Shown here: positions 10,232 to 40,488 of the stretch, piece by piece
Layout: every line of letters begins with the position of its first letter
Position numbering within the stretch: position 1 is the stretch's first letter
DNA from: a virus
Reading direction: 5' to 3' (one strand)
IMG/VR virus record: IMGVR_UViG_3300030107_003232
Location: 4,492 to 68,491 of that record
Length of the DNA stretch: 64,000 bases
Position numbers and translations under genes: made by a program
The notes under the pieces: model-generated
Told to the model about the DNA's origin: nothing
Databases searched by the model: none
What the model saw: the letters and a program-made list of their open reading frames with translations, nothing else

Positions 10232-13200
10232 TCACCCCACAAAGAACCATGTATTCGCGGCAACCGCAACATAGGTTCTTGCCTTATCGTCAGATATAGC
10301 GGTGTGGCTACTTGGAACGGTGCTATTGCTTGTTCCCAATCCGGGTGTTAAATCTGAACCTGTGTTGTTAATAATAGTGTATTGCTGGCCTATTTCTGCT
10401 GTTGCAGGTAGGGTAGGCGCACCGCTACTTGTGCAATACACATACGAGCCGGATTGTGCGTCTGTTAATGTTGTTGAGCCTGTTACTGCTACTACACTTA
10501 TTTTGTTTGCTACTAATCCGTTAGCATCTCCCTTAAACCAAGTTACTCCACCATCGCCGGAAGTTATCAATAATTGGTCATCACCTGTGGCGGAATCAAC
10601 ATCACCACTACCAATTACAAGGTTATTTGACCCCGAAGTGATGTTATCGCCCGATTCTGTTCCAATGCAGATATTCTTATCCCCGCTACTAACCAAGTAA
10701 GCGGCTCGGTAGCCTATGCCTGTGTTGTAGTCTGAACCATCATCGGGTGTATAGAGGGACTGTCTTCCGATGGCTATGTTATAATTAGCACTCCCATTGA
10801 TTGCGTAAAGTGCGCTATCTCCAATACCGATATTGTAATCTCCCTCAAATGTTCCATCGCCACCATAAGTCGGATTATCTCCTATAAATACATTTTTTGT
10901 AGCATTAGCCGTTCCTCTTGCACCAGCCCCATAACCAATACAAACTGAGTTAGTAGCCAAAGACCAAATTCCAGACCAAAAACCAATTGCGGTTGAACCG
11001 TACCCTAAGTTTTTACCAGCATTAGAACCAACGGCAACAACCCTGCTATCTGTGCTATTAGTGGTTCCGGCCTGTTTTCCGATAAACACACTATCTGTTG
11101 CTGTTGATATTGCCGTTCCAGCGGCCCACCCCATCGCGGTGTTATTAGTTCCGCTCGATAAAGCATCTAAAGTGGTAATACCAACACCTGTGTTATACAC
11201 CGCACTACTTAATGTTCCTGTGGTTTGGTGGCCTAATAACAAACTCCCTGTAAAATCTGTTCCGCCGGATTTTCCATCCGATAAATCATCTATGCCGCCC
11301 GCAACCCCACTTGGTCCTGTAGGTCCGGTAGGGCCAGCAGGTCCGGTTGGCCCCGTAGGTCCTGTTCCACCATCCGAGCCGTCATCTCCGTCTGAACCCG
11401 CAGGTCCGGTGGGTCCAGCAGGTCCGGTCGGTCCTGTAGGTCCGGTCGGTCCTGTTGCGCCTGACGGAATACTAAAGGCGAAAACCTTTGCCGTAGCCGG
11501 ACCGGATGCGGTTACACCAATTGGACCTGTGCTGGCGGTCGGCGTTCCAAACCCTGCCGCCGCACCTGCTGAACCATCGCTACCGTCTGACCCATCTGAG
11601 CCAGCAGGTCCTGTAGGTCCGGTGGGTCCTGTAGGACCCGTTGGGCCGGTTGGTCCTGTTGGTCCTGTCGCACCAGCAGGTATTGAGAATGCGAAAACTT
11701 TTGCGGTGTCCGGTCCGCTTGCCGTTACACCTATTGGTCCTGTGCTTGCTGATGGCGTTCCAAAGCCCGCAGCAGCGCCCGTGCTACCTGTGGGTCCTGT
11801 AGGCCCCGTAGGACCTGTTGGTCCTGTCGGCCCACTTGGACCTGTTGGTCCTGTAGCACCAGCAGGGATAGTAAAGGCAAACACCTTTGCCGTAGCAGGG
11901 CCGCTTGCCGTTACGCCTATTGGTCCTGTTGAAGCGGTTGGGGTTCCAAATCCAGCGGCAGTTCCTGTAGGTCCGGTAGGACCTGTTGGACCGGTAGGGC
12001 CTGTTCCTCCATCTGAACCATCCGAACCGTCGCTACCAGCAGGTCCGGTAGGTCCTGTCGGACCCGTAGGCCCTGTTGGGCCTGTTGGACCTGTTGCCCC
12101 CGCCGGAATACTAAACGCGAATACCTTAGCGGTGTCGGGCCCGGATGCGGTAATACCGATAGGTCCGGTGCTTGCAGTAGGTGTGTCGAATCCAGCCGCC
12201 GCACCAGCGGGTCCGGTTGAGCCACCCGGACCTGTAGGTCCCGTAGGACCCGTAGGGCCAGCAGGGCCTGTGGGGCCTGTTGAACCATCCGAACCATCAG
12301 ACCCGTCTGAACCAGCAGGTCCCGACGGACCCGTAGGACCTTGAGAGCCTGTGGGTCCCGTAGGCCCCGTGGGTCCCGTAGGCCCTGTGGAGCCCGTATC
12401 TCCCTTATCACCTGTTCGTGCAAAGGTTACGGCTATATCTTCACCGTCTGAAAACGGGGAAGAAGCCGATGAATCAACGGTGCTTACTGTAATATCGAAA
12501 TAACCGCTTTCTTCTGTAAGCGAAGAAATAGTGCATAGAATAAATTGGCTTGAGTCGGTTAAATTGCTAATTTTAACATGGCCCTTGATGGTTGAAGTTG
12601 AATCATCAATAGTGCGAAGGAAAGATTGAATATCTGTTCCATCTAAATCGCTATCATCAAGATATATTCCGGTTGCCGAGTTCTGAGTACCATTGTCTAA
12701 ACGCAATTTCCCTGCTCCGGGGTCGGACTTTGTGGTTGTAGTGCTAAAATCATATTTGAAAGTTGCACCACCAAAAGAGCCTTGAGGTCCGGTAGGTCCG
12801 GTAGGTCCGGTTGAACCAGCCGGGCCTGATGGCCCCGTTGGTCCTGTCGGCCCTGTCGGTCCCGTTGAACCATCCGAACCATCGCTACCATCGCTACCCG
12901 CCGGACCACTTGGTCCGGTAGGTCCTGTAGGCCCGGCCGGACCGCTTGGTCCTGTTCCGCCATCTGAACCATCACTACCCGCTGGCCCTGACGGTCCTGT
13001 GGGTCCTGTGGGTCCTGTGGGTCCGGTCGGACCCGCTGCACCAGCAGGTATGCTAAACGCAAAAACTTTAGCGGTGTCCGGCCCACTACCTGTTACCCCG
13101 ATAGGGCCTGTAGTTGCGGTGGGAGTCCCAAATCCTGCGGCAGAACCCGTCGGTCCTGTGGGGCCCGTAGGACCTGTTGAACCGTCGGACCCATCACTAC

Positions 13201-15004
13201 CGGAGGGGCCTGTAGGGCCGCTCGGCCCTGTAGGACCTGTAGGACCCGTTGGTCCAGCCGCACCAGCGGGTATTGTGAAGGCAAATACTTTAGCAGTATC
13301 GGGTCCACTACCCGTTACGCCTATAGGTCCCGTTGAGGCAGTAGGTGTCCCAAATCCGGCAGCAGTTCCTGTAGGCCCTGTAGGCCCACTTGGTCCTGTA
13401 GGCCCACTTGGTCCTGTTGAACCATCGCTACCGTCGCTACCATCCGACCCTGCTGGCCCCGATGGCCCCGTAGGACCCGTAGGACCCGACGGTCCGGTTG
13501 GGCCTGTAGGCCCTGTTGGTCCAGCAGCACCTGCTGGGATAGAGAAAGCGAATACTTTTGCTGTGGCCGGACCACTTGCTGTAACACCAATAGGGCCTGT
13601 TGAGGCGGTAGGTGTGTCGAATCCGGCTGCTGCCCCTGTTGGTCCTGTGGGGCCTGTTGGTCCTGTGGGACCTGTTGACCCGTCATCTCCGTCTGAACCG
13701 GAAGGACCGGAGGGGCCCGTTGGACCTGTCGGCCCGGTTGGACCCGTAGGACCTGTTGGGCCAGCCACAGTTGAGTCTGCCCCTGTTGGGCCTGTTGGGC
13801 CGGAAGGTCCGGTTGGACCTGTTGGTCCTGTAGCACCGGATGGAATAGAAAAAGCGAATACTTTGGCTGTAGCGGGACCGCTTGCAGTAACGCCAATAGG
13901 TCCGGTTGAAGCAGTAGGTGTATCAAAGCCCGCCGCTGTTCCGGTCGGTCCGGTCGGACCTGTTGGTCCGGTAGGACCTGTGGAACCATCGCTACCATCA
14001 GAACCAGCGGGACCCGTTGGTCCTGTTGGTCCAGCGGGACCCGTAGGTCCGGTTGGGCCGCCCGCGCCCGTTGGTCCTGTCGGACCTGTTGGTCCTCCGG
14101 GTCCGGTTGGACCTGTGGGTCCGGTATCTCCGGCAGACGCTAAAAGACTCCAATAAGAAGCGTTGGTTGGTAAAATAGAGCCGGATGATGTATGCGCTTG
14201 CACACAAATATAAGAAGATTCGTTAGTAGTGTAATATACTGCGTCGTCCACAGAATATGATGTTGATGTGGCCCAATTACCTTCCCAAACTAAACCTTCG
14301 GGTCCTGTGCTACCAGCAGGGCCGGTAGGCCCGGTAGGGCCTGTTGGTCCCGTAAGACCAATAGAGCCTGTTGGACCCGTTGGACCCGTTGGGCCCTCCG
14401 GTCCGGTTGGCCCACCTGCTCCCGTTGTGCCTGTTGGGCCTGTAGGTCCAGCCGGGCCTGTTGAGCCCGAAGGGCCCGTTGGTCCTGTTGGTCCGGTGGC
14501 CCCTGTTGGGCCTTGAGCGCCTGTCGGTCCTGTAGGACCTGCTGGCCCTGTAACACCAACAGAAGAAAATATCATCCATGTGTCCGTGCCTATCTTTCGT
14601 ATAACTGCTGTGCTATACTGTGAAATAGTAGTCGAACCACTAAGCGTAACCCCTACAGCGCCAGCAAGAGTCAAATTACCCGCGCCCTTATTCATAACCT
14701 TTAGTTCGGTTTTATCAGTAGGGAATGCAACAGTAGCGTTTGTAGGAATTGTAAATGTAATAGTCGAGCCTTTGTTAGCCATTACTACGCGGCCCTCATC
14801 AGTTCTTGTGAAAGTATAATCACCTGTTTTATCAACAACGGGTCTTACATCAGCCGATTGACCGGCCACAGTAGTTCCGTCGCCGAAGAAGACGAAGCCG
14901 CTATCTGCATCCTTGAATAACTGTGCGGCGTGAGGGGTAACAGTAAGCCTATCTGCTTGTGTAGTAAAGATAAGATTCTTATTGTCTGTTAGAACATCAA
15001 CCAT
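10232..15004 (-). CDS. Collagen-like tail/head fibre (Gly-Pro-Thr repeats)
   Basis: Long G-P-T triplet tracts, eight ~38-aa interrupting repeats, CBM5/12-like motif ([13 protein letters not shown]...[10 protein letters not shown]), C-terminal N-x-A/G-I-G beta-roll repeats. Confidence 0.9.
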
Positions 15005-27649: not shown

Positions 27650-28513
27650 TCATAGCATCGGGTTCACCCCGACCCAAGTGGTTGAATTGAATAATTCAAT
27701 TATCTCCGCGAAATTTTCAGACCTTGGGTCAACTCCACAGACAGTTAAACCGATTTCGTCAATCTCAGGAATCACGAATCGAATACGGCTTTCATCTCCG
27801 TCTTTGATTGCTGGGCATTCTTTGTCTGCCCAACCGCCCCAACAATTTCGGCGACCACAAGCACACTTGCCGTTGCTCTTGTTGTATCGGTATGCGATAG
27901 GTAGCGAGTTCTTTGAACGCTGGCTCAATGTTCTCAAGTGGCTAATGTATAACTCGCCACGATAGTTCAAGCCGAGCATTGGAACTTTAGCACCTAAGCC
28001 AAGACCAACATCAAGTTGAGGCCAATACTGAGGGGCTATGTTTGCGGTGATTACAGGGTTTGAGTAATCAAGCGGATATTCAGCGCCACAGATACCAGCG
28101 CGGCGAATTGGTCTTAGTGGGTGGTAATTACTGACCAAACAGTTTGGAACTCCGCAAGAAGGAGATGTGCAAGCATCTCTAACGCCTTCGGTTGGTGCTG
28201 TGTATCGGTGGTTCACTTCAATATCAGCGGATAGGCTTAGGTTAGTGTTTCGACCTGCTGAGTCAATCCCAAATGAGCGCTGTTGATAGTTAGTCAATTT
28301 TGCCGACTGCTCATATATTGGGTGGCCTGTTGCTGGCTGGGTCTTATTTCCGAGTTTGCCCCTTTGGACTAAGAGAGAAGGCCACCCTTCTTTTCTTAGC
28401 CTCTTTGTGGCGTTGCCTATGGTTGTATAACCATAGGTCGCCATCAATCGCTGTGCAAGTTGCACAACGACGCGTTCGTCATCAATCGTCGTATAGGTTG
28501 CTGTTGCCTCCAT
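27650..28513 (-). CDS. Hypothetical Cys-containing protein
   Basis: Long ORF with its own TTTAAG promoter ~25 nt before MEATAT; no family recognised. Confidence 0.7.
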   Translation of the reverse strand: MEATATYTTIDDERVVVQLAQRLMATYGYTTIGNATKRLRKEGWPSLLVQRGKLGNKTQPATGHPIYEQSAKLTNYQQRSFGIDSAGRNTNLSLSADIEVNHRYTAPTEGVRDACTSPSCGVPNCLVSNYHPLRPIRRAGICGAEYPLDYSNPVITANIAPQYWPQLDVGLGLGAKVPMLGLNYRGELYISHLRTLSQRSKNSLPIAYRYNKSNGKCACGRRNCWGGWADKECPAIKDGDESRIRFVIPEIDEIGLTVCGVDPRSENFAEIIELFNSTTWVGVNPML

Positions 28514-28786
28514 ATCCCTACGGGGGTTCAACATCCACCTTAAACATATCGTGATTTTTTGCTGGAATCGCAGGTTTTGAGTGGCCGCCGGACACGTTCT
28601 GACGCACTTTTGACGCGGCGAAATCGCCGTTTTTGGGCTAATTTCGCAGGTGCAATTATGGAAGTCATTTTAGGGGCCACCGCTCTTTTACTACAAATTA
28701 TTCAATACAAATTATTCAATATAAATTAAAAACAAAAAAAAGAAAATTGCCCCACCGCCAAAAAGCGGCGGCGAGGACTTTTTCTT

Positions 28787-29020
28787 TCATTCGTCAATAT
28801 GCGGGAATTGTTCCGCTATCTCCGGCTCAACCCATGTTGAACTCAGGCAATCATAACAGGTGATGAGGGTCTTGCCGCCAATAACGGTATCAGTCCTCAA
28901 CCAATAGTGAAGCCCTGTCGCATTGAAGCGACTAAGGACAACACCCCTGTTCAGGTCGGGATGCCCGACCAATTTTAGGCACTCAGTTTCAATTATCTCA
29001 GTCATTCTTTTTTCCTCCAT
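28787..29020 (-). CDS. Small hypothetical protein
   Basis: ORF between repeat clusters; GGAGG SD before MTEIIE; CxxC. Confidence 0.6.
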   Translation of the reverse strand: MEEKRMTEIIETECLKLVGHPDLNRGVVLSRFNATGLHYWLRTDTVIGGKTLITCYDCLSSTWVEPEIAEQFPHIDE

Positions 29021-29298
29021 TTTTTTCTTTAGCCTCGCCCCGCATAGTGGGGCATAGCCCCACTATAGAGGGCATCGCATTTAGACCTGTCGACTCCCTG
29101 ACCTTACCGTGCATCATCGGTTTTGTTTTACTACAAATTAAATACTACAAATTATTTACATCTATTTACTACAAAATAAAAAATACTACAAATTAAAAAT
29201 CCAAAAAACAAAAATACTACAAATTAAAGAATACAAATCCTGCACGGCTTACACCATAGGATGCGTGCGGAGGATTACTACAAATTAGATACTACAAA

Positions 29299-29559
29299 TC
29301 ATTCTGCTTCTATATTGAGAAGTTCAAGGTGCATCAATTTTTCATCAACGACCCAACCCGCATAATCGAAAGTATCGTCGTTGATATAGAAAGGGTCTGA
29401 TTCGCCCAACATCTCAATGAATCTGTTGCGTGGATATTCAACCACAGCGCCAACCACGCCGTCGCCGTTGATGTAGCGCATAAGGGAGGCTATCACCTCA
29501 TCCTTGCTATCCACGGTATCGAATAGAGAGCCGTCAATGAAGACGTTGTAGTTCCCCAT
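29299..29559 (-). CDS. Small acidic hypothetical protein
   Basis: Start MGNYNV coupled (TGATG) to the upstream micro-ORF. Confidence 0.65.
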   Translation of the reverse strand: MGNYNVFIDGSLFDTVDSKDEVIASLMRYINGDGVVGAVVEYPRNRFIEMLGESDPFYINDDTFDYAGWVVDEKLMHLELLNIEAE

Positions 29560-29678
29560 CAAGCCACCCCCGCCGCGCATTCGCAGACGATAAGCACGGC
29601 ATCTGTGCCGTTCTCGCCGCCTCCATCATAGAAGTCAATCATCATTAGGGCCTTGTTTGGGTCGCAGTCGCAAGCCAT
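29559..29678 (-). CDS. 39-aa Cys-rich micro-protein
   Basis: MACDCDPNKAL...LIVCECAAGVA; leaderless ATG after a TATAATAA box. Confidence 0.55.
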   Translation of the reverse strand: MACDCDPNKALMMIDFYDGGGENGTDAVLIVCECAAGVA

Positions 29679-29870
29679 GATGCTGAGATAGTACCCCCCT
29701 TATTATAGTCTTCGGTCTGCGATGCTGATTTACTACAAATTAATTACTACAAATTATTTAGATGTATTTACTACAATTTATTTACTACAAAGTTTTTACT
29801 ACAAATTATTCAAAACTACAAAATTTGCCCCGCCCCAAAAATTTGGGGCGAGGACTTGGGCTTTCAGATT

Positions 29871-30047
29871 TCAATATAGTTCGTCAATTGAAGACGAGTA
29901 AGTGTAGGAGTCAAGATTGATTTCAAACACATGGTTTTCGTTATCTTCTGTGAATATGGATACATACATTGTCCTGTCTTGAATCCATACTGCTGTTTTT
30001 CGGTCGTCTATATCGTCGTCAGTTATGTCGTGCTTGTTGTCCGTCAT
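29871..30047 (-). CDS. 58-aa acidic protein
   Basis: MTDNKHDITDDDIDDRK...; own CTATAAG promoter; flanked by repeat clusters. Confidence 0.6.
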   Translation of the reverse strand: MTDNKHDITDDDIDDRKTAVWIQDRTMYVSIFTEDNENHVFEINLDSYTYSSSIDELY

Positions 30048-30235
30048 ATTAGTTGCTCGTCATGGTCGGCTTATAGTCTTTGTGTTTCCTTACTACAAAT
30101 TATTTACTACAATTTATCTAATACAAATTAATTACTACAAATTATTCACTACAAAAAAAGAAAAAATACTACAAATTAAAAAATACAAAAAAGTTCGGGG
30201 AGGTAGGAGTTCGACCCCTACCCCCCTTTACGTAA

Positions 30236-30409
30236 TCATGCCTCATCGCATTCGGGGCATATATCCCCTTCTTTCCATGTATAGTTCGGGTGTAAGATTT
30301 GGTTTCCGTCATCAAGATGAACTAAATACACTATTGATTTGTTGCATATACTACACGGGTTAATAGTTCCGTATTTCCACATCATCAAATTAAACAGCAA
30401 CTCGTTCAT
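30236..30409 (-). CDS. 57-aa Zn-finger protein
   Basis: CSIC...CPEC; GGTGA SD. Confidence 0.6.
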   Translation of the reverse strand: MNELLFNLMMWKYGTINPCSICNKSIVYLVHLDDGNQILHPNYTWKEGDICPECDEA

Positions 30410-30420
30410 TTTCTCACCGC

Positions 30421-30672
30421 CTAATAATACCGTTCTTCATCGTATAGTAAATCCCAATCGTGATGCGTGCGCGGCTCTTTGTAGGCCGAGCAATTGCGAC
30501 AAGTCCAACAGGGGAAATGCTCTTTGGTTTCAAAACCTGTTTCGCCGACCCAATCCCACTCAACGCTCGTTTCCCATGAGTGTTTGTGGTCTGCACAATA
30601 GGCTTTTACGTCATAGATAACCTTCCACGACACGCCCTCATTATCCGTGTAAATGTGTTGTTTCTCGACCAT
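30421..30672 (-). CDS. Small Zn-binding hypothetical protein
   Basis: GGAGGTGA SD; CADH...CRNC. Confidence 0.65.
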   Translation of the reverse strand: MVEKQHIYTDNEGVSWKVIYDVKAYCADHKHSWETSVEWDWVGETGFETKEHFPCWTCRNCSAYKEPRTHHDWDLLYDEERYY

Positions 30673-30683
30673 GTTCTCACCTC

Positions 30684-31184
30684 CTAATAGTAAGGGCGGA
30701 ATAGCCCCTCGGATGGGTAGTATGTCCGGTAGCCGTCTGCATCGGTTGAGAAGTCATGGAAGCCGCATTCAGCCGCCATTAACGCAATATCTGCGTTGCG
30801 CTCCTCTCTCTCCCTATTAACGCGGTAATTGCGCGCATACTCGCGCTGCTTACGGTTCCTATGCTCTCTCAAGACTTCATCGTAAGAGAAGCCGTTAGCA
30901 TAGCACCATAGCCACTCTTTAGCCTGTCTGAGCGTATATACTTCAGATGTTTTGATGGAGCCTGTGTAACCGCCCTTTTGCGGGCCTTTTATGCGGAGAT
31001 AATAACCCCCATGTTTACCCGCTATTTTCGCATAACCCCTCTTAGTGGTGTCGGATTTACCCGCCACCTTTGCGCGCGCATACGCGGCCGCAAGGCTCAT
31101 TTTTTCTTCGCTTTCAACTTCTGCTGGTCCTGTTAGAAGTAGGGGCAACAGAACCCCTACAAGTAGCAATATGCCTACCTCCAT
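30684..31184 (-). CDS. Basic hypothetical protein
   Basis: Leaderless MEVGILL start after a TTATA box; alternative start MSLAAA at 31100. Confidence 0.6.
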   Translation of the reverse strand: MEVGILLLVGVLLPLLLTGPAEVESEEKMSLAAAYARAKVAGKSDTTKRGYAKIAGKHGGYYLRIKGPQKGGYTGSIKTSEVYTLRQAKEWLWCYANGFSYDEVLREHRNRKQREYARNYRVNREREERNADIALMAAECGFHDFSTDADGYRTYYPSEGLFRPYY

Positions 31185-31476
31185 ACGTCGGCGTAGGTCG
31201 TTCAAGTATAAGAAGGCATCGTCAATTTAATTTGTAGTATTTGTTTTGTAGTAAGCAGACGAGCGAAGCGATTTTACTACAAATTATTTACTACAATTTA
31301 TTCTCGGTTTACTACAAATTAATTACTACAAATTAAAAACTTACTACAAATTAAAAACTACAAAATAAAAAAGAATCCAAAAAATACTACAAATGATTTA
31401 CTACAAATACGGGCGCGGAGGGGATTTACCCCCCCGCCCCTTACGTATCACCCTACTACAAAGAATTTACTACAAA

Positions 31477-31857
31477 TCACGCATAATTTTCTGCGTTGTG
31501 TACGATTTGCATTTTCGCCATTGATAGAATACACGACATAATCATGGGAACTTTAGCGCGTCGTGTGTTGCGCGCGATGCCCCACTCTCGCTTGATTGTA
31601 GCAATAGCACCGTTGCCTTTGTTTGTAACCCTCATATTGGGCCACCGTGCTTCTTGCTCAACCATAGTGTGTATAAGCGAATAGCGCGCTGCTACGGTGT
31701 TTCCCTTGCTTGCTGCATCAACTACCATATCAACCGCCTTTCGCACACCATATACGCCGTCATTGAACTGCTGGCTCAATACGAGTTCTTTACCCTCGTA
31801 TTCAACCGTACAACATAGACCTTGACCGCATGGGCTCGCAAAATCAGTTATCTTCAG
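31477..31857 (-). CDS. Hypothetical protein, possible CTG start
   Basis: Frame is open upstream of the tracked TTG to a CTG 4 nt after GGAGGTGA. Confidence 0.55.
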   Translation of the reverse strand: MKITDFASPCGQGLCCTVEYEGKELVLSQQFNDGVYGVRKAVDMVVDAASKGNTVAARYSLIHTMVEQEARWPNMRVTNKGNGAIATIKREWGIARNTRRAKVPMIMSCILSMAKMQIVHNAENYA

Positions 31858-32086
31858 CCTCTCACCTCCAATCCTGCCTACTCCTGTTCTGCTTATGAAC
31901 CCATCGTTAATTTAATTTGTAGTAGGTATGATTCTTTTTACTACAAATTATTTTTACAGCACTAACTTAATACAAATTATTTACTACAAATTATTTACTA
32001 CAAATTATTTACTACAAAAGAAAAAAACAAAAATACCATAAAACAAAAACTACAAAAAATACTACAACTCAAAAACTACAAACATT

Positions 32087-32293
32087 TCATTCTTCTTCGC
32101 TAATTTTTGTAGCGTATAAGTCAGCAAGTTTCGCCATTCTTATAATTTCGTTAATAGCCCAATCTCTCGATTTTTTGGTATGTCGTGTATCTGTTAACCA
32201 ATCAATGAGTGCTGGAACTACATCAATCCACTTTGGTGTAATATCCACGTATTCAACAGTTCCGTCTTCGTCTTCGTAGGAGTCTTCATCCAT
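32087..32293 (-). CDS. Small hypothetical protein
   Basis: Leaderless ATG after a CGAAAGG-TTCATAAG BRE/TATA element. Confidence 0.65.
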   Translation of the reverse strand: MDEDSYEDEDGTVEYVDITPKWIDVVPALIDWLTDTRHTKKSRDWAINEIIRMAKLADLYATKISEEE

Positions 32294-32514
32294 ATTTGTC
32301 CGTATGCTGGTTTGCTTATGAACCTTTCGATTATGCCTTTTTTACTACAAATTATTTTCTTTACTACAAATTATTTACTACAAATTAATATCTTTACTAC
32401 AAATTAAAATTTACTACAAATTAAAAACTACAAAAAAGATAAGATTACAAAAATTACTACAAATTAAAAACTACAAAAAAGAAGGAGGGGCCGAAGCCCC
32501 CCCAACTTTTATGT

Positions 32515-32946
32515 TCACTCGTCGTCGTCGTAATTCCAAAGGACCGTTTCACCATCAGCGTCTTTGTAGCCGATGAAGTTCCGGTTTGTTCCGTCGTCGC
32601 CCTTTACTCTCCGGTCATCGAACTGATAGTTCATGCTAATGTTGATTCTCTTTGAGTACTTAGACTCAAACACCGTGTATTCGTAGCGTGGGTTGCCCAT
32701 CCATACCCTCACATCTTCGATGTGGCGGTCGTGTTGTGCTAAGACTGAGCGCAGTTGCGTTAGTGTTACTTCTAACTTAAGGTCTGCACCGAAGACACCG
32801 CCATAGGTGTCCTTCATGTTTAGGATAATGGTAGGCCTCCTTGTCTTCATTCTGTCGTCGTTATCGTCGTAGTAGGTTTCGGTCATTTCTGCCCGAAGTC
32901 TATCCACAAGTCGCATTAGGTTTGTAGTTCCGCGAACTTCCTCCAT
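32515..32946 (-). CDS. Hypothetical protein
   Basis: Start MEEVRG after GGTTCATAAG; followed by a GC hairpin. Confidence 0.7.
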   Translation of the reverse strand: MEEVRGTTNLMRLVDRLRAEMTETYYDDNDDRMKTRRPTIILNMKDTYGGVFGADLKLEVTLTQLRSVLAQHDRHIEDVRVWMGNPRYEYTVFESKYSKRINISMNYQFDDRRVKGDDGTNRNFIGYKDADGETVLWNYDDDE

Positions 32947-33127
32947 GGTTGAGCCACCGCACCGACCCTTATGAACCCCACGCTTTCCGGTTCTGGAATA
33001 ATTTGTAGTAATCAATACATCACCGTTTTACTACAAATTAATTTGTAGTAATCTTTCCGCTGCGCTACTACAAATTAAAAACTACAAAAAAAGTAAAAAT
33101 CACCAAATCCAAAAATTACTCCGATTC

Positions 33128-33364
33128 TCAAAAATTCTTGGTTTCGTTAAGGTATAGCCAATCGGGGTCTTCGTTGTATTTATCTCTTGAAATTAGGTAG
33201 GTTGATAATTCGCCAATGGTCTGAGATAGTTCATTTATCAACTCGTTAAGATAAGGCTTATCTGGACACATTTTTGCGTATATTCTATCAATCATCACAT
33301 TATGTAATGCGTTTACATCATCTTCTTGTAGTATCTTCCAATCGGGTTCGGCTTCTTTGCTCAT
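33128..33364 (-). CDS. Small hypothetical protein
   Basis: Leaderless ATG after TTGATAAG; flanked by repeats. Confidence 0.65.
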   Translation of the reverse strand: MSKEAEPDWKILQEDDVNALHNVMIDRIYAKMCPDKPYLNELINELSQTIGELSTYLISRDKYNEDPDWLYLNETKNF

Positions 33365-33451
33365 ATAGGGTCGTGGGGGTTGCCCCTTATCAATGCAGCG
33401 GCAGCGGCGGCATATTTACTACAAATTAATTTGTAGCAATTTTTCCGCTGC

Positions 33452-33683
33452 AAAAAAACCCGCAACGCCCCCGCTTCATCACGGCGGGGTGCGCTTAGGA
33501 GGGGCGGTGATGAACCGCGAGGGCCGAAGCCAGCACCCCGAAGGGCTTTCTCACCCAACACACCGGAAGGGCCTTACCTCCCACCTGCTAAGGTTCTGCT
33601 GGGGTCATCACAGGCGCGGGGTCTGCACTTTGTGCTTTCCGTAGCCCCCCATGAGAGGCGTTGGTTGGCCCGCCGTTGCAGAC
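33452..33683 (-). ncRNA. Candidate ~230-nt structured non-coding RNA
   Basis: GC-rich; own promoter; 5'/3' closing helix; two CUUCGG loops; U7 tract at the end; no convincing ORF. Confidence 0.6.
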
Positions 33684-33861
33684 AAACCTCCGAGTTGTGG
33701 TTTGCTTAAGAAACTTTCGATTGTATCTTTTTACTACAAATTAATTTGTAGTATGTTTGCATCTGTATTTTTACTACAAATCTTTTACTACAAATCTCAG
33801 AAGGACTTACACCCTCGGCAACGCTTCGCGCGCCTCTCGATGCCTTCGGAGGTTTTGATTT

Positions 33862-34185
33862 TCACTTTATGCCGTATCTCTTGCGCATTTCTTTCTTAGT
33901 GTGGCCCATAGCACCAACGATTTGAATAATCAATCTTAATTTTTCGTTAGCCTCGCGCCGACTCCATCCAACATAAGAGCCACTTGAACCCGTTGCAGGG
34001 TGTCGGTGTTGCCCGTATGACTTAGGGGGTGAAGCGTATATGTTCCAGCCCCGTCCGTAAGTGGGCGAACCTTCTTCAAGAATGGTTCTCCACCCTTTAG
34101 GCATTAAGCCCGCATCTATTGTTAAGGCGTGTATGCGTTCAACAATCGCCTCTGTGTCTTTTTTCGTTTCTCTCATTTTATTCAT
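33862..34185 (-). CDS. Hypothetical protein
   Basis: GGAG SD before MNKMRE; LEEGSPTYGRGWNIY motif. Confidence 0.65.
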   Translation of the reverse strand: MNKMRETKKDTEAIVERIHALTIDAGLMPKGWRTILEEGSPTYGRGWNIYASPPKSYGQHRHPATGSSGSYVGWSRREANEKLRLIIQIVGAMGHTKKEMRKRYGIK

Positions 34186-34337
34186 TCTCCTGTTGCGCCT
34201 TTTTGCGCTATTCTGACCGAACAAGCGGCGGCATATATACTTAACGGCTTTTGAGGTGTATTTACTACAAATTAATTTGTAGTAGTAGTTTTTCGGTTAT
34301 TTTACTACAAAATATGTAATACAAAATAGAATCCAAA

Positions 34338-34526
34338 TTATTCTTCGTCTTCGTATTTGTATATTTCAACGAACTCGCCGCACATAGGACAATAATATGT
34401 GGGGCTTAGTCCTGAATCGCCCATCGCGTCAATAAGTCTATCGAGTTCTTCCGATGGGGTGCAGCATTCGTAAAACGGTGATGTACCGCTGTGTAGCAAA
34501 TAATAGCGTGGTGTGTATTTCGCCAT
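34338..34526 (-). CDS. Small Zn-ribbon protein
   Basis: H...ECC...YYCPMCG; leaderless after CTTAAATA. Confidence 0.6.
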   Translation of the reverse strand: MAKYTPRYYLLHSGTSPFYECCTPSEELDRLIDAMGDSGLSPTYYCPMCGEFVEIYKYEDEE

Positions 34527-35001
34527 GAATCGCAGACATGGTAGGGGTATTTAAGGCTGTCGTTTCATTACTACAAATTAATTTGTAGTATTGGTCGGGG
34601 CCGTTTTACTACAAATTAAAAACTACAAAATACTTACTACAAATTAAAATCCAAAAATCAAAATCCGAAAAATTACTACAAATTATTTACTACAAATTAA
34701 ACTTAGTGCAAAAAGTAAAGCGGGTGTTGTGAATTACATCGAGTGCAAAAACAAAAGTGGGTGCAAAAAGTGCAGCAGGTGCGAATGACGCAGTAGGTAT
34801 CTGACGCTTTACTACAAATTATTCGGGAGAGTGCTGTTTCCAAACTATTATATAGTATGACTACCTCACGCATGGGTCGCGTAATATCGCGGCTATATAT
34901 TTTTCTTATTTTACTACAAAATACTTACTACAAAACATGGTTGGAAATAAGAGAGTGCTACACCGTCGCATTGATATAGTAGTGGGTTGTCGGATGGTTT
35001 A

Positions 35002-35205
35002 ATGGCGAACCGATACATCAACAACCTACCCGACCTATGCACCGACATTCTCAACGAGATGTATGAGAATGGATTGAGAGAGATTAACAGCACTTGCGGC
35101 GACGAGAATGCCTGTAATCTCACCGTGAATCAACTTCACTTTATCCGCAAGATACTCTATAAGCGTGGCTTCGTCGTGAGAGATATTGAGGAGGTGGTCG
35201 CATAG
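35002..35205 (+). CDS. Small hypothetical protein
   Basis: First plus-strand gene after the divergence point; start MANRYI. Confidence 0.6.
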   Translation: MANRYINNLPDLCTDILNEMYENGLREINSTCGDENACNLTVNQLHFIRKILYKRGFVVRDIEEVVA

Positions 35206-40110: not shown

Positions 40111-40488
40111 TACAATCAAGAGATGATAAAATGAAGCAAGCAAGAAGACATAGATACATACAGAAATTCAAGGCCCGCGTAAAGTCGGGTGAGAAGAATA
40201 GCCGCATGAAGAAAGGGGATGAATGAATGATTCGTGAGGCCATGAGCGAAATATACGATAACGAGTATGACGCAGTAGTAGCGACCGTGCGCGTGTATGC
40301 AATCGGATTCATGGCTATTATTACGCTAATAGTAAGTGCGGTGTTCCTTTGAAGTGCAACGACCCGACTCATCCAAAAGTAGTAGGCGAGTCCTATTGCC
40401 GTGTGTGCAAGCGAAAGAGCGAAGAAGAAGAATGACGCTTGCGAGGCGTAATCGAAGGGTTCTTAAGCAAACATCCCTACGACAAATC

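What the first reader, a model, noticed from the sequence alone, without database searches (positions are those of the whole stretch)
33452..33720. Promoter-driven ~230-nt structured RNA occupying one cassette slot
Seen: the minus-strand promoter TCGAAAGTTTCTTAAGCAAACCA nearly duplicates that of the 32293 gene (TCGAAAGGTTCATAAGCAAACCA). At the equivalent start position (about 33683) there is no ATG, but the 5' arm CUGCAACG, which pairs with CGUUGCGG just before a U7 tract. The interior is GC-rich with two CUUCGG loops. It has mutually exclusive pairings: 5' ACGGCGGG with CCCGCCGU versus the terminal CCCCGC/GCGGGG hairpin, and two GUGAUGA copies competing for one UCAUCAC. I do not see tRNA, SRP, RNase P or hammerhead signatures. 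Inference: a new viral ncRNA, possibly a conformational switch or protein sponge.
Basis: partly seen in the sequence, partly recalled or inferred. Interest (0 to 1): 0.75.

Follow-up and report, generated by a model that had tools for sequence, protein, structure and literature searches.

The report
New folded RNA gene, archaeal virus
One gene-sized slot of this ocean virus, which probably infects marine archaea, makes a roughly 230-base RNA that codes for no protein, folds into a shape kept by compensating mutations in related viruses, and matches no catalogued RNA family; what it does is unknown.

Summary
Window 33452-33683 (minus strand) is a GC-rich island (62-66% GC). It lies behind a cassette promoter and ends in T7. 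It has no Rfam, tRNA or tmRNA match.

I found seven distinct homologous sequences on about 16 contigs, all in terminase-related, magrovirus-like marine viruses. None turned up in the cellular genomes I scanned.

All seven share a 101-162-nt domain:
- A closing helix Pc and hairpin P0.
- Helix P1 carrying P2, P3 and P4. One member lacks P2 and P3.
- Hairpin P5, whose loop pairs with the P4 loop over 6 bp.

Evidence for the fold:
- On a MAFFT alignment not fitted to the structure, 90.1% of cells pair, against 43-58% when partners are slid.
- 13 pairs show compensatory change, against 0-4 in the slid controls.
- MFE folding reproduces the model in 5 of 7 sequences.
- No reading frame is conserved.

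The 5' third is a variable stem-closed domain. The element is accessory. A close relative holds a protein cassette in the same slot, and three near-complete relatives lack it.

Its switch pairings are not conserved. Function is unknown; my best guess is a trans-acting, factor-binding scaffold RNA made early in infection. The scan had already flagged other magrovirus RNAs, but not this family.

The parts
33734..33751 (.). Perfect 18-bp palindrome CTACAAATTAATTTGTAG upstream of the promoter. It is a cassette boundary and a likely regulator site.
   Evidence: Five perfect copies in the window, each counted on both strands; chance expectation 0.05. Coordinates. In the L022/L137 lineage a different palindrome, CTACATAATGTTATGTAG, holds the same place.
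33704..33719 (-). Promoter: CGAAAG (BRE-like) followed by TTTCTTAAGC (TATA-like). The archaeal reading is inferred.
   Evidence: Near-duplicate of the promoter of the 32293 gene. In 3 of 3 protein cassettes with the 9-mer, the ATG starts 20 nt after the motif.
33621..33683 (-). Variable 5' domain closed by helix Pa (GUCUGCA 33677-33683 with UGCAGAC 33621-33627). The predicted 5' end is 33683.
   Evidence: MFE folding closes this domain with a terminal helix in all 7 members, although the sequences are unrelated. Identity of the 5' domain between lineages is 31-63%, against 98% for window versus L144. The 5' end is inferred.
33459..33620 (-). Conserved domain. Pc 33616-33620 with 33459-33463. 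P0 33611-33615 with 33583-33587. P1 33577-33582 with 33497-33502. UAAG 33573-33576. P2 33566-33572 with 33553-33559. P3a 33535-33546. P3b 33522-33531. P4 33504-33518. P5 33464-33495.
   Evidence: CM R1 and R2 matches. Covariation counts. Helix table, 326 of 331 cells canonical. MFE folds. Coordinates.
33508..33513 (-). P4 loop UCAUCA, the 5' half of the kissing loop.
   Evidence: Invariant in 6 members. L044 has UUAUCA, with the matching change in the partner loop.
33476..33481 (-). P5 loop UGAUGA, the 3' half of the kissing loop.
   Evidence: Invariant in 6 members. L044 has UGAUAG, giving U-A in place of C-G plus one U-G wobble.
33452..33458 (-). T7 tract directly after Pc. Probably an oligo-T terminator.
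   Evidence: Seen in the sequence. T-rich tracts follow the domain in L144, L022, L031 and L044. Reading it as an archaeal oligo-T terminator rests on general knowledge.
33419..33436 (.). Next palindrome, which opens the following cassette (gene 33364-33128).

Best explanation
This is a self-contained gene for a non-coding RNA of about 230 nt in a magrovirus-like tailed virus, probably of marine group II archaea.

Shown:
- The gene sits in one slot of the leftward array of small early cassettes and uses the same promoter module as the protein cassettes.
- The RNA has two parts. The first is a variable, stem-closed 5' domain.
- The second is a conserved domain of two nested four-way junctions: Pc/P0/P1/P5 outside and P1/P2/P3/P4 inside.
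- The 7-nt P4 loop pairs over 6 bp with the loop of the neighbouring P5 hairpin.
- P1+P4 (10-12 bp) and P5 (10-13 bp) are about equally long and are joined by a single A. An intramolecular kissing loop that locks the two arms side by side is therefore geometrically plausible.
- The element is accessory. It moves as a unit between positions and strands and is not tied to any neighbouring gene.

Inferred:
- Transcription starts at about 33683 and stops in T7.
- The RNA acts in trans as a pre-folded scaffold that binds a host or viral factor, as a decoy or RNP subunit, during early host take-over.

My odds: about 0.9 that it is a real stand-alone structured RNA gene of an undescribed family, and about 0.35 for the factor-binding mechanism.
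For: Homologues:
- nhmmer and the two CMs find the same members and nothing else convincing in about 0.79 Mb of terminase-related loci.
- Of the 60 metagenome stretches that matched my pattern, 10 are real members. The other 50 have no R1 hit at E<=10.

Structure:
- RNAalifold on an unfitted alignment predicts P1, P4 and P5, with 12 compensatory pairs among 32.
- The count of structure pairs on MAFFT alignment A3 (6 sequences, 39 pairs) gives 90.1% paired against 42.9-58.3% slid. It gives 13 pairs with changes on both sides against 0-4 slid. 0 of 500 shuffles reach the observed values on four of five measures.
- MFE folding reproduces every helix in 5 of 7 domain sequences.
- The hand table has 326 of 331 canonical cells. 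Pc changes from CCCGC/GCGGG to CUGC/GCAG to CAGCGGUCC/GGGUCGCUG.

Strand: the sense strand folds 2.9-15.9 kcal/mol better than the antisense in 7 of 7.

Non-coding:
- L031 and L027 have stops in all six frames.
- Domain lengths of 162, 143, 131, 135, 125, 125 and 101 nt differ by non-multiples of three.
- The 25-codon TTG frame stops after one codon in L137 and L022.

Promoter.

Accessory and modular:
- The close relative L040 (84-89% identical flanks) holds a protein cassette between the same palindromes.
- 0 of 3 near-complete relatives match R1 or R2.
- Flanking genes are not homologous across members, and the 143-aa gene is downstream in the window and L022 but upstream in L144.

Selection: window versus L022 is 95.6% identical over the 68-nt 3' block, against 73% in the neighbouring gene.
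Against: - No expression data were obtained, so transcription and both RNA ends are inferred.
- There are only 7 distinct sequences in 3-4 lineages. Relatedness inflates shuffle statistics, and the A3 structure was derived from these same sequences.
- Kissing-loop covariation rests on one sequence, L044. It comes from my hand alignment, because MAFFT and both CMs misalign L044's P4.
- In the window and L144, P2 has two U-U mismatches, and their MFE folds differ from the model in the middle.
- The window sequence alone folds no better than shuffles.
- Nothing in the data identifies a binding partner. The factor-binding mechanism is inferred from context only.
- The archaeal host is inferred. 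It rests on GroEL, PolB and RFC-like content, on the best full-length PolB hits being haloarchaeal tailed viruses at 24-25% identity, and on the published description of magroviruses.
Confidence: 0.5

Rival explanations
1. Riboswitch-like cis element. The junctions form a ligand pocket. Formation of Pc, whose 3' strand directly abuts the T7 tract, decides whether transcription stops or reads through into the next cassette.
For: The layout recalls known aptamers: parallel helices pinned by a kissing loop around a multi-helix junction (recalled, not tested). Pc ends directly at T7 in the window and L144.
Against: Downstream genes are unrelated across members. The downstream cassette has its own palindrome and promoter, with ATG at the canonical +20. 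L137 and L027 have no clear T-run after Pc. No Rfam riboswitch family matches.
Confidence: 0.12
2. Self-assembling RNA. The complementary P4 and P5 loops pair between molecules, hand in hand, to build dimers or rings. This would resemble phi29 pRNA or the ROOL/GOLLD assemblies.
For: Two 6-nt complementary loops sit on separate hairpins. In the L031 type the gene lies about 1.3 kb downstream of the terminase gene, on the same strand, with small ORFs in between. Natural RNA-only multimers built through kissing loops are published (PMC12286853; I saw only the search listing and abstract).
Against: The arm lengths fit an intramolecular contact. The element is dispensable: it is absent from a close relative and from 3 near-complete relatives. 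It lies at varied positions and on either strand relative to the terminase gene. No pRNA, ROOL or GOLLD match in Rfam.
Confidence: 0.12
3. tRNA-like decoy or processing signal. The inner cloverleaf (P1-P4) has a 7-bp acceptor-like stem in the window type, UA after it, and a T-arm-like P4 (GGUUCAUCACC) running straight into the 3' strand of P1. It would be recognised by tRNA-handling enzymes or by a tRNA-targeting defence.
For: Cloverleaf topology and a T-arm-like hairpin with a 7-nt loop next to the acceptor-like strand.
Against: ARAGORN finds nothing and there is no tRNA-clan hit in Rfam. P3 has a 3-4-bp stem and a loop of 3-10 nt, so there is no anticodon arm. There is no CCA. L044 lacks P2 and P3 altogether. 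The T-like loop pairs with P5 rather than with a D-loop.
Confidence: 0.08
4. Self-cleaving ribozyme, or the RNA of a small mobile element that carries its own promoter.
For: It appears at different sites and orientations as a unit. Four-way junctions that dock neighbouring arms occur in the hairpin ribozyme (recalled).
Against: No match to any ribozyme family in Rfam. The apparent flanking direct repeats are the ordinary cassette promoters and palindromes. There is no integrase or reverse-transcriptase neighbour: none of the 8 neighbouring proteins scanned has a Pfam match above its curated cut-off.
Confidence: 0.05
5. Not an RNA gene. It is a GC-rich DNA signal (origin, packaging or recombination site) or a short protein-coding gene.
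For: It is a GC island among AT-rich repeat arrays near the strand-switch region. Antisense frames of 70-76 codons are open in the window, L144 and L022.
Against: There are many G-U pairs and a consistent sense-strand advantage in 7 of 7. L031 and L027 have stops in every frame. Indels are not in threes. Promoter and T-tract polarity are kept across members.
Confidence: 0.03

Closest known systems
Other stand-alone structured RNAs of magrovirus-like viruses flagged earlier by this scan (unpublished AI notes), and orphan ornate viral or phage RNAs such as GOLLD and ROOL
   Same: Promoter-driven, protein-free cassettes in marine archaeal viruses with covarying multi-stem folds, no known function, and a suggestion of loop-loop pairing.
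   Different: This RNA is much smaller (about 230 nt, with a conserved domain of 101-162 nt). Its sequence matched no other window of the scan. It has no GOLLD, ROOL or manA match in Rfam.
Tan1, a 229-nt abundant ncRNA attributed to marine group II archaea (PMC5069720; passages read)
   Same: Nearly the same length, the same ecological setting, described as having a complex conserved secondary structure, and unknown function.
   Different: No Tan1 sequence is given in the text I could read, and supplements are closed, so homology could not be tested. My pattern scans of species-representative genomes found no member. R1 found none in 151 genomes sampled from the phylum of a DHVE2-group archaeon MAG.
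phi29 pRNA (packaging RNA)
   Same: A virus-encoded, promoter-driven small RNA with a multi-helix junction and two loops that are Watson-Crick complementary to each other.
   Different: As I recall it, pRNA pairs its loops between molecules over 4 bp, is essential, and sits at a fixed genome end in phi29-like bacteriophages. Here the pairing is 6 bp and probably intramolecular. The element is accessory and movable, the host is probably archaeal, and there is no Rfam pRNA match.
Junction-plus-kissing-loop aptamers and ribozymes (purine riboswitch L2-L3, cobalamin L5-L13, hairpin-ribozyme four-way junction); all recalled
   Same: Neighbouring helices of similar length held side by side by a loop-loop contact that organises a junction.
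   Different: No sequence or CM similarity. It is not upstream of a conserved gene set. No ligand or cleavage site is known.
tRNA
   Same: The inner four-way junction is a cloverleaf with a T-arm-like hairpin next to the 3' strand of the closing stem.
   Different: There is no anticodon arm and no CCA. It is not detected by ARAGORN or Rfam. P2 and P3 are dispensable in L044.

Membership tests
Any Rfam 15 family (4227 models) | CM score at or above the family's gathering threshold | tested here: not met
   0 matches in the 64-kb window and 0 in 8 related loci, 109,602 bases. With permissive filters on 33440-33700 there are only two chance-level hits, at 13.0 and 12.1 bits against cut-offs of 50 and 67.7.
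manA RNA (RF01745) | Match to the manA covariance model (gathering score 55.2 bits) | tested here: not met
   No match at E<=10 in the whole 68.5-kb virus record.
tRNA / tmRNA | Detection by ARAGORN; anticodon arm (5-bp stem, 7-nt loop); 3' CCA or discriminator context | tested here: not met
   0 genes in the window. P3 has 3-4 bp with a loop of 3-10 nt, and is absent in L044. AAG plus hairpin P5 follows the acceptor-like stem.
Riboswitch or cis-regulatory leader | Sits in the 5' UTR of a recurring set of genes | tested here: not met
   The six downstream ORFs taken from five members show no similarity to one another at E<=0.01. The next cassette has its own promoter with the canonical +20 ATG.
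Riboswitch or cis-regulatory leader | Ligand-dependent structural change | not testable with these tools
   Needs in-line probing or SHAPE.
Archaeal C/D box sRNA | Conserved C (RUGAUGA) and D (CUGA) boxes forming a K-turn near the termini | tested here: not met
   The first GUGAUGA is present in 1 of 7 members. The conserved UGAUGA pairs with UCAUCA and changes with it in L044. No snoRNA family reaches threshold.
phi29-type pRNA | Match to the Rfam pRNA model; essential, fixed location by the packaging genes | tested here: not met
   No Rfam hit. Absent from L040 and from 3 near-complete relatives. Position and strand vary.
Tan1 (PMC5069720) | Sequence or structure homology to the published 229-nt RNA | not testable with these tools
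Magrovirus (the host virus, not the RNA) | Head-tail module plus an archaeal-type replication set (PolB, RFC, chaperonin), about 65-100 kb (size recalled) | tested here: met
   TerL, portal and tail fibre, PolB and GroEL. RFC-like AAA+. Best full-length PolB matches are Halorubrum tailed viruses at 24-25% identity. The record is 68,491 bases and 99% complete. Description read in PMC5434244 passages. No tree was built, so group assignment is open.

The most novel reading that the evidence does not exclude
The conserved kissing-loop-locked double four-way-junction domain is a new class of functional RNA fold: a ligand sensor, a ribozyme or an anti-defence decoy, native to viruses of the ocean's most abundant planktonic archaea. 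RNAs of this kind, perhaps including the abundant 229-nt 'archaeal' Tan1 transcript, would then be viral tools for taking over the host.
Probability: 0.15. Interest if true: 0.85.

Novelty: categorically new. Interest (0 to 1): 0.62.

Why it matters
- My two literature searches and term look-ups in two magrovirus papers found no report of a non-coding RNA in these viruses.
- The presumed hosts, marine group II archaea, are uncultured and very abundant.
- A compact RNA with a clear covarying fold (a conserved domain of 101-162 nt) can be studied directly by chemical probing, crystallography or cryo-EM, and in binding screens.
- It is accessory and sits among early cassettes, which points to RNA-based host manipulation or counter-defence in archaea.
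- The novelty is at the level of RNA family and fold. The general kind, an orphan structured viral RNA, is known, and the function is open.

Tried and rejected
Expression. The look-up of sequencing runs (kind rna) on window:32000-35300 listed no RNA holder.

Known families.
- Rfam at gathering and permissive thresholds gave nothing.
- manA gave nothing.
- ARAGORN gave nothing.

DNA similarity. Window 32000-35000 had no match in the 50,697 phage records.

Pattern scans.
- Viral contigs returned only contigs I already held, plus noise. L088, L089 and L190 are false hits.
- Genome contigs gave 0 hits, then 37 hits of which none passed R1, best E 1.6.
- The metagenome scan gave 60 stretches, 10 of them real.

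Other searches.
- The search for related loci with the neighbouring 143-aa protein returned only 2 known contigs.
- R2's marginal hits in L003 and L066 are hairpin-plus-T-run look-alikes.
- The CM alignments misplace L031's P2 and L044's P4. MAFFT misaligns P5 or P2 between lineages. For that reason L044 and Pc were analysed by hand, and the tool count was run on A3 without L044.

Readings considered and dropped.
- Protein-coding reading.
- My first guess of a Bacteroidota phage, based on TTTG-rich motifs. I dropped it after the replication genes and the earlier notes pointed to an archaeal virus.
- A 16S 3'-end (anti-SD) mimic reading of AUCACC..CCUCCU. The L031, L027 and L044 types have CCUCUU instead.

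Limits.
- Tan1 has no sequence in the readable text and no later paper.
The supplements of PMC5069720 may hold the Tan1 sequence.
Full report
WHAT IS THERE

On the minus strand the region reads, in order:
- an 18-bp perfect palindrome (33751-33734);
- CGAAAG plus TTTCTTAAGC (33719-33704);
- a GC-rich stretch;
- T7 (33458-33452);
- the next palindrome (33436-33419);
- the next gene (33364-33128).

GC is 0.62-0.66 across 33450-33699, against 0.25-0.47 beside it.

The promoter string has one near-twin, in front of the 68-aa gene at 32293. Five places in 28500-35200 carry the 9-mer TTNWTAAG+1. In the three that are followed by an ordinary ATG gene, the ATG begins exactly 20 nt after the motif. The same offset in this cassette is 33683, where the sequence is GUCUGCA and there is no ATG. 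The fifth place, at 31899, precedes a TTG-start gene with a leader of about 100 nt.

No tRNA or tmRNA and no Rfam family matches.

The sequence by itself does not fold better than shuffled versions: z is +0.34, and 127 of 200 shuffles fold at least as well. The window alone therefore proves nothing.

WHAT VIRUS

The window is 64 kb of a 68,491-base IMG/VR record rated 99% complete. It encodes:
- TerL, a portal-like protein, a collagen-like tail fibre, PolB and GroEL;
- an RFC-like AAA+ protein, DUF932 and a PD-(D/E)XK nuclease.

Its PolB aligns over its full length best with Halorubrum tailed viruses, at 24-25% identity. This fits the published description of magroviruses, which have a head-tail module, an archaeal-type replication set and GroEL or thermosome (PMC5434244, passages read).

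I had started from a Bacteroidota-phage reading.

The archaeal host is an inference. Under it:
- the promoter reads as BRE plus a TATA-like box;
- the +20 ATGs read as leaderless starts;
- T7 reads as an oligo-T terminator.

HOMOLOGUES

Scanning viral contigs with the terminase gave 164 confirmed relatives among 169 stretches, of which 80 loci were kept. nhmmer with the element found a clear homologue in L022 (E 3.5e-23) and weaker matches to its 3' half in other loci.

Pattern scans and two covariance models followed:
- Viral contigs.
- Metagenome contigs.
- Genome contigs.
- Models: R1 built from 4 sequences and R2 built from 6.

Together they gave seven distinct domain sequences: window, L144, L137, L022, L031 (identical in L140), L027 and L044. 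Exact copies of the L022, L031 and L027 domains occur in 5, 9 and 8 fetched loci. Many of those loci are the same contig fetched twice. By contig name and length I count about 16 distinct contigs.

Negative results:
- Nothing else in 791,776-794,228 bases of related loci scores convincingly. L003 and L066 are hairpin-plus-T-run look-alikes.
- 0 hits in 185,579 species-representative genomes for the kissing-loop pattern.
- 37 hits for a looser pattern, none passing R1.
- 0 of 151 genomes drawn from the phylum of a DHVE2-group archaeon MAG match R1. I recall, but did not verify, that this phylum also holds Poseidoniales.

STRUCTURE

The window and L022 differ by indels of 1, 3, 5 and 7 nt around blocks of near-identity.

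All members share the following elements in 5'-to-3' order:
- Pc 5' strand;
- hairpin P0;
- P1 5' strand (GRGAGG);
- UAAG;
- P2;
- P3;
- P4 (4-5 bp, 7-nt loop YUYAUCA);
- C;
- P1 3' strand (CCUCYU);
- A;
- P5 (10-13 bp, with UGAUGA or UGAUAG in the loop);
- Pc 3' strand.

L044 lacks P2 and P3, and has a single U in place of UAAG.

Evidence that does not depend on my hand alignment:
- RNAalifold on MAFFT alignment A2 predicts P1, P4 and P5, with 12 of 32 pairs compensatory.
- RNAfold on each domain alone returns the full set of helices in 5 of 7 (L137, L022, L031, L027, L044). For the window and L144 only Pc and P5 match.
- The count of structure pairs on MAFFT alignment A3 (6 sequences, without L044; 39 pairs, 232 cells) gives:
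  - 90.1% of cells paired, against 42.9-58.3% for partners slid by 1-3 columns;
  - 13 pairs with changes on both sides, against 0-4;
  - covariation score 0.268, against 0.043-0.109;
  - 0 of 500 shuffles reaching the observed values for four of five measures, and 73 of 500 for 'further pair types'.

In that count P2 is only 67.5% paired. Part of the reason is that MAFFT shifts the L031-type strand by one column. The other part is that the window and L144 have two U-U mismatches there.

My hand table has 326 of 331 canonical cells. Compensatory series include:
- Pc: CCCGC/GCGGG, then CCCGC/GUGGG, then CUGC/GCAG, then CAGCGGUCC/GGGUCGCUG.
- P0: GCCUG/CAGGU, then GUCUG/CAGAU, then CACAUC/GAUGUG, then CAUAUC/GAUAUG.
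- P4: GCGG/CCGC, then GGGA/UCCC, then GGAA/UUCC.

The kissing loop UCAUCA/UGAUGA never varies in six members. In L044 it becomes UUAUCA/UGAUAG. That is one pair changed on both sides plus one wobble. This is the only covariation for the loop-loop contact, and it comes from my hand alignment.

The sense strand folds better than the antisense in 7 of 7, by 2.9-15.9 kcal/mol.

The junction linkers are 0-1 nt in the outer junction. P1+P4 and P5 are of similar length. This makes an intramolecular side-by-side docking plausible, but that is an inference.

The 5' third, 33683-33621 in the window, is closed by a terminal helix in every member. Between lineages it is no more similar than unrelated sequence: 31-63% in global alignment. 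The conserved domain is 47-89% identical.

NOT CODING, NOT CIS-REGULATORY

- L031 and L027 have stops in all six frames.
- Antisense frames are open only in the three GC-richest members.
- The six downstream ORFs I compared, taken from five members, show no similarity to one another at E<=0.01. The conserved 143-aa gene lies downstream in the window and L022 but upstream in L144.
- None of the 8 neighbouring proteins has a Pfam match above its curated cut-off. One has a sub-threshold DUF6382 hit.

ACCESSORY CASSETTE

L040 is 84-89% identical to the window in the flanks. Between the same palindromes it holds a protein gene with its own promoter and terminator hairpin, in place of the RNA gene and the 107-aa gene.

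Of ten whole related records searched with R1, one matched, and that was the record L031 lies in. Three of these records are 92-99% complete and have no match with R1 at E<=1 or with R2 at E<=5.

In the L031 type, the gene lies about 1.3 kb downstream of the terminase gene and on the same strand. It sits behind a TTTATATA box, with small ORFs in between. In the L027 type, it lies on the opposite strand.

- The second GUGAUGA is unique to the window, 1 of 7.
- ACGGCGGG/CCCGCCGU is broken in L144.
- The 5'-end/3'-end helix exists only in the window and its near-twin L144.
- The CUUCGG hairpins are in the variable P3.

The 'switch' reading is therefore not supported. The 'new viral ncRNA' reading is.

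WHAT IT DOES

Nothing in the data names a function.

The fold is elaborate and pre-organised. The gene is accessory, mobile as a unit, under a standard early-cassette promoter, and unlinked to any gene. It is more conserved than its neighbours: 95.6% over the 68-nt 3' block against 73% in the adjacent gene for window versus L022.

I therefore rank the explanations as follows:
- a trans-acting factor-binding scaffold or decoy, about 0.35;
- a riboswitch-like read-through control, about 0.12;
- an oligomerising RNA, about 0.12;
- a tRNA-like decoy or processing signal, about 0.08;
- a ribozyme or mobile element, about 0.05;
- a non-RNA reading, about 0.03.

COMPARISON AND NOVELTY

- No Rfam family matches, including manA, which earlier notes of this scan linked to other magrovirus RNAs.
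- The scan's index holds no look-alike of this sequence outside this window.
- My literature searches found no report of ncRNAs in magroviruses. This rests, and on term look-ups in PMC5434244 and PMC11706807 that returned 0 occurrences of 'non-coding', 'ncRNA' and 'promoter'.
- Tan1, a 229-nt abundant RNA attributed to marine group II archaea (PMC5069720), is the one published RNA that could be related. I could not test this because its sequence is not in the readable text.

I rate the RNA family and fold as new. The general kind, an orphan structured viral RNA, is familiar.

Noticed in passing
L062:7300-7720 (-): Behind a promoter and leader of the same type (GGAAGGTTCATATACTCACC...) lies about 400 nt of GC-rich sequence. 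It is unrelated to this RNA, has no obvious ORF and ends in a T-run. It has no Rfam match better than E=0.5. It may be another stand-alone RNA gene.
   Followed up: partly
window 28500-35200 (-): Cassette promoter grammar: a palindrome or TAATTTGTAGTAAA arrays, about 20 nt, TTSATAAGS, then ATG exactly 20 nt later in 3 of 3 ATG cassettes (33393, 32975, 32322). This suggests leaderless mRNAs.
   Followed up: partly
window 33734-33751 and L022/L137 flanks: The cassette palindrome differs between lineages but keeps its place and symmetry. It is CTACAAATTAATTTGTAG in the window, L144 and L040, and CTACATAATGTTATGTAG in L022 and L137. It looks like an operator co-evolving with a virus-specific regulator.
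   Followed up: no
window 31477-31899 (-): The cassette at 31899 has the promoter 9-mer but no ATG at +20. Its gene seems to start at TTG 31779, after a leader of about 100 nt. It is homologous to the gene that follows the RNA in L144.
   Followed up: partly
L031:3860-3880 and L027:~7530: In these lineages the RNA gene has a different promoter, TTTATATAC(C)TAACCCCCC. The same box recurs just after the RNA in front of the next gene, so what look like flanking direct repeats are promoters.
   Followed up: no
window 10232-15004 (-): A 1590-aa collagen-like tail-fibre gene forms a 53-61% GC block in a genome of about 43% GC.
   Followed up: no
window 40452-40474 (+): A third, 3-mismatch copy of the promoter string, TCGAAGGGTTCTTAAGCAAACAT, on the plus-strand arm.
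   Followed up: no
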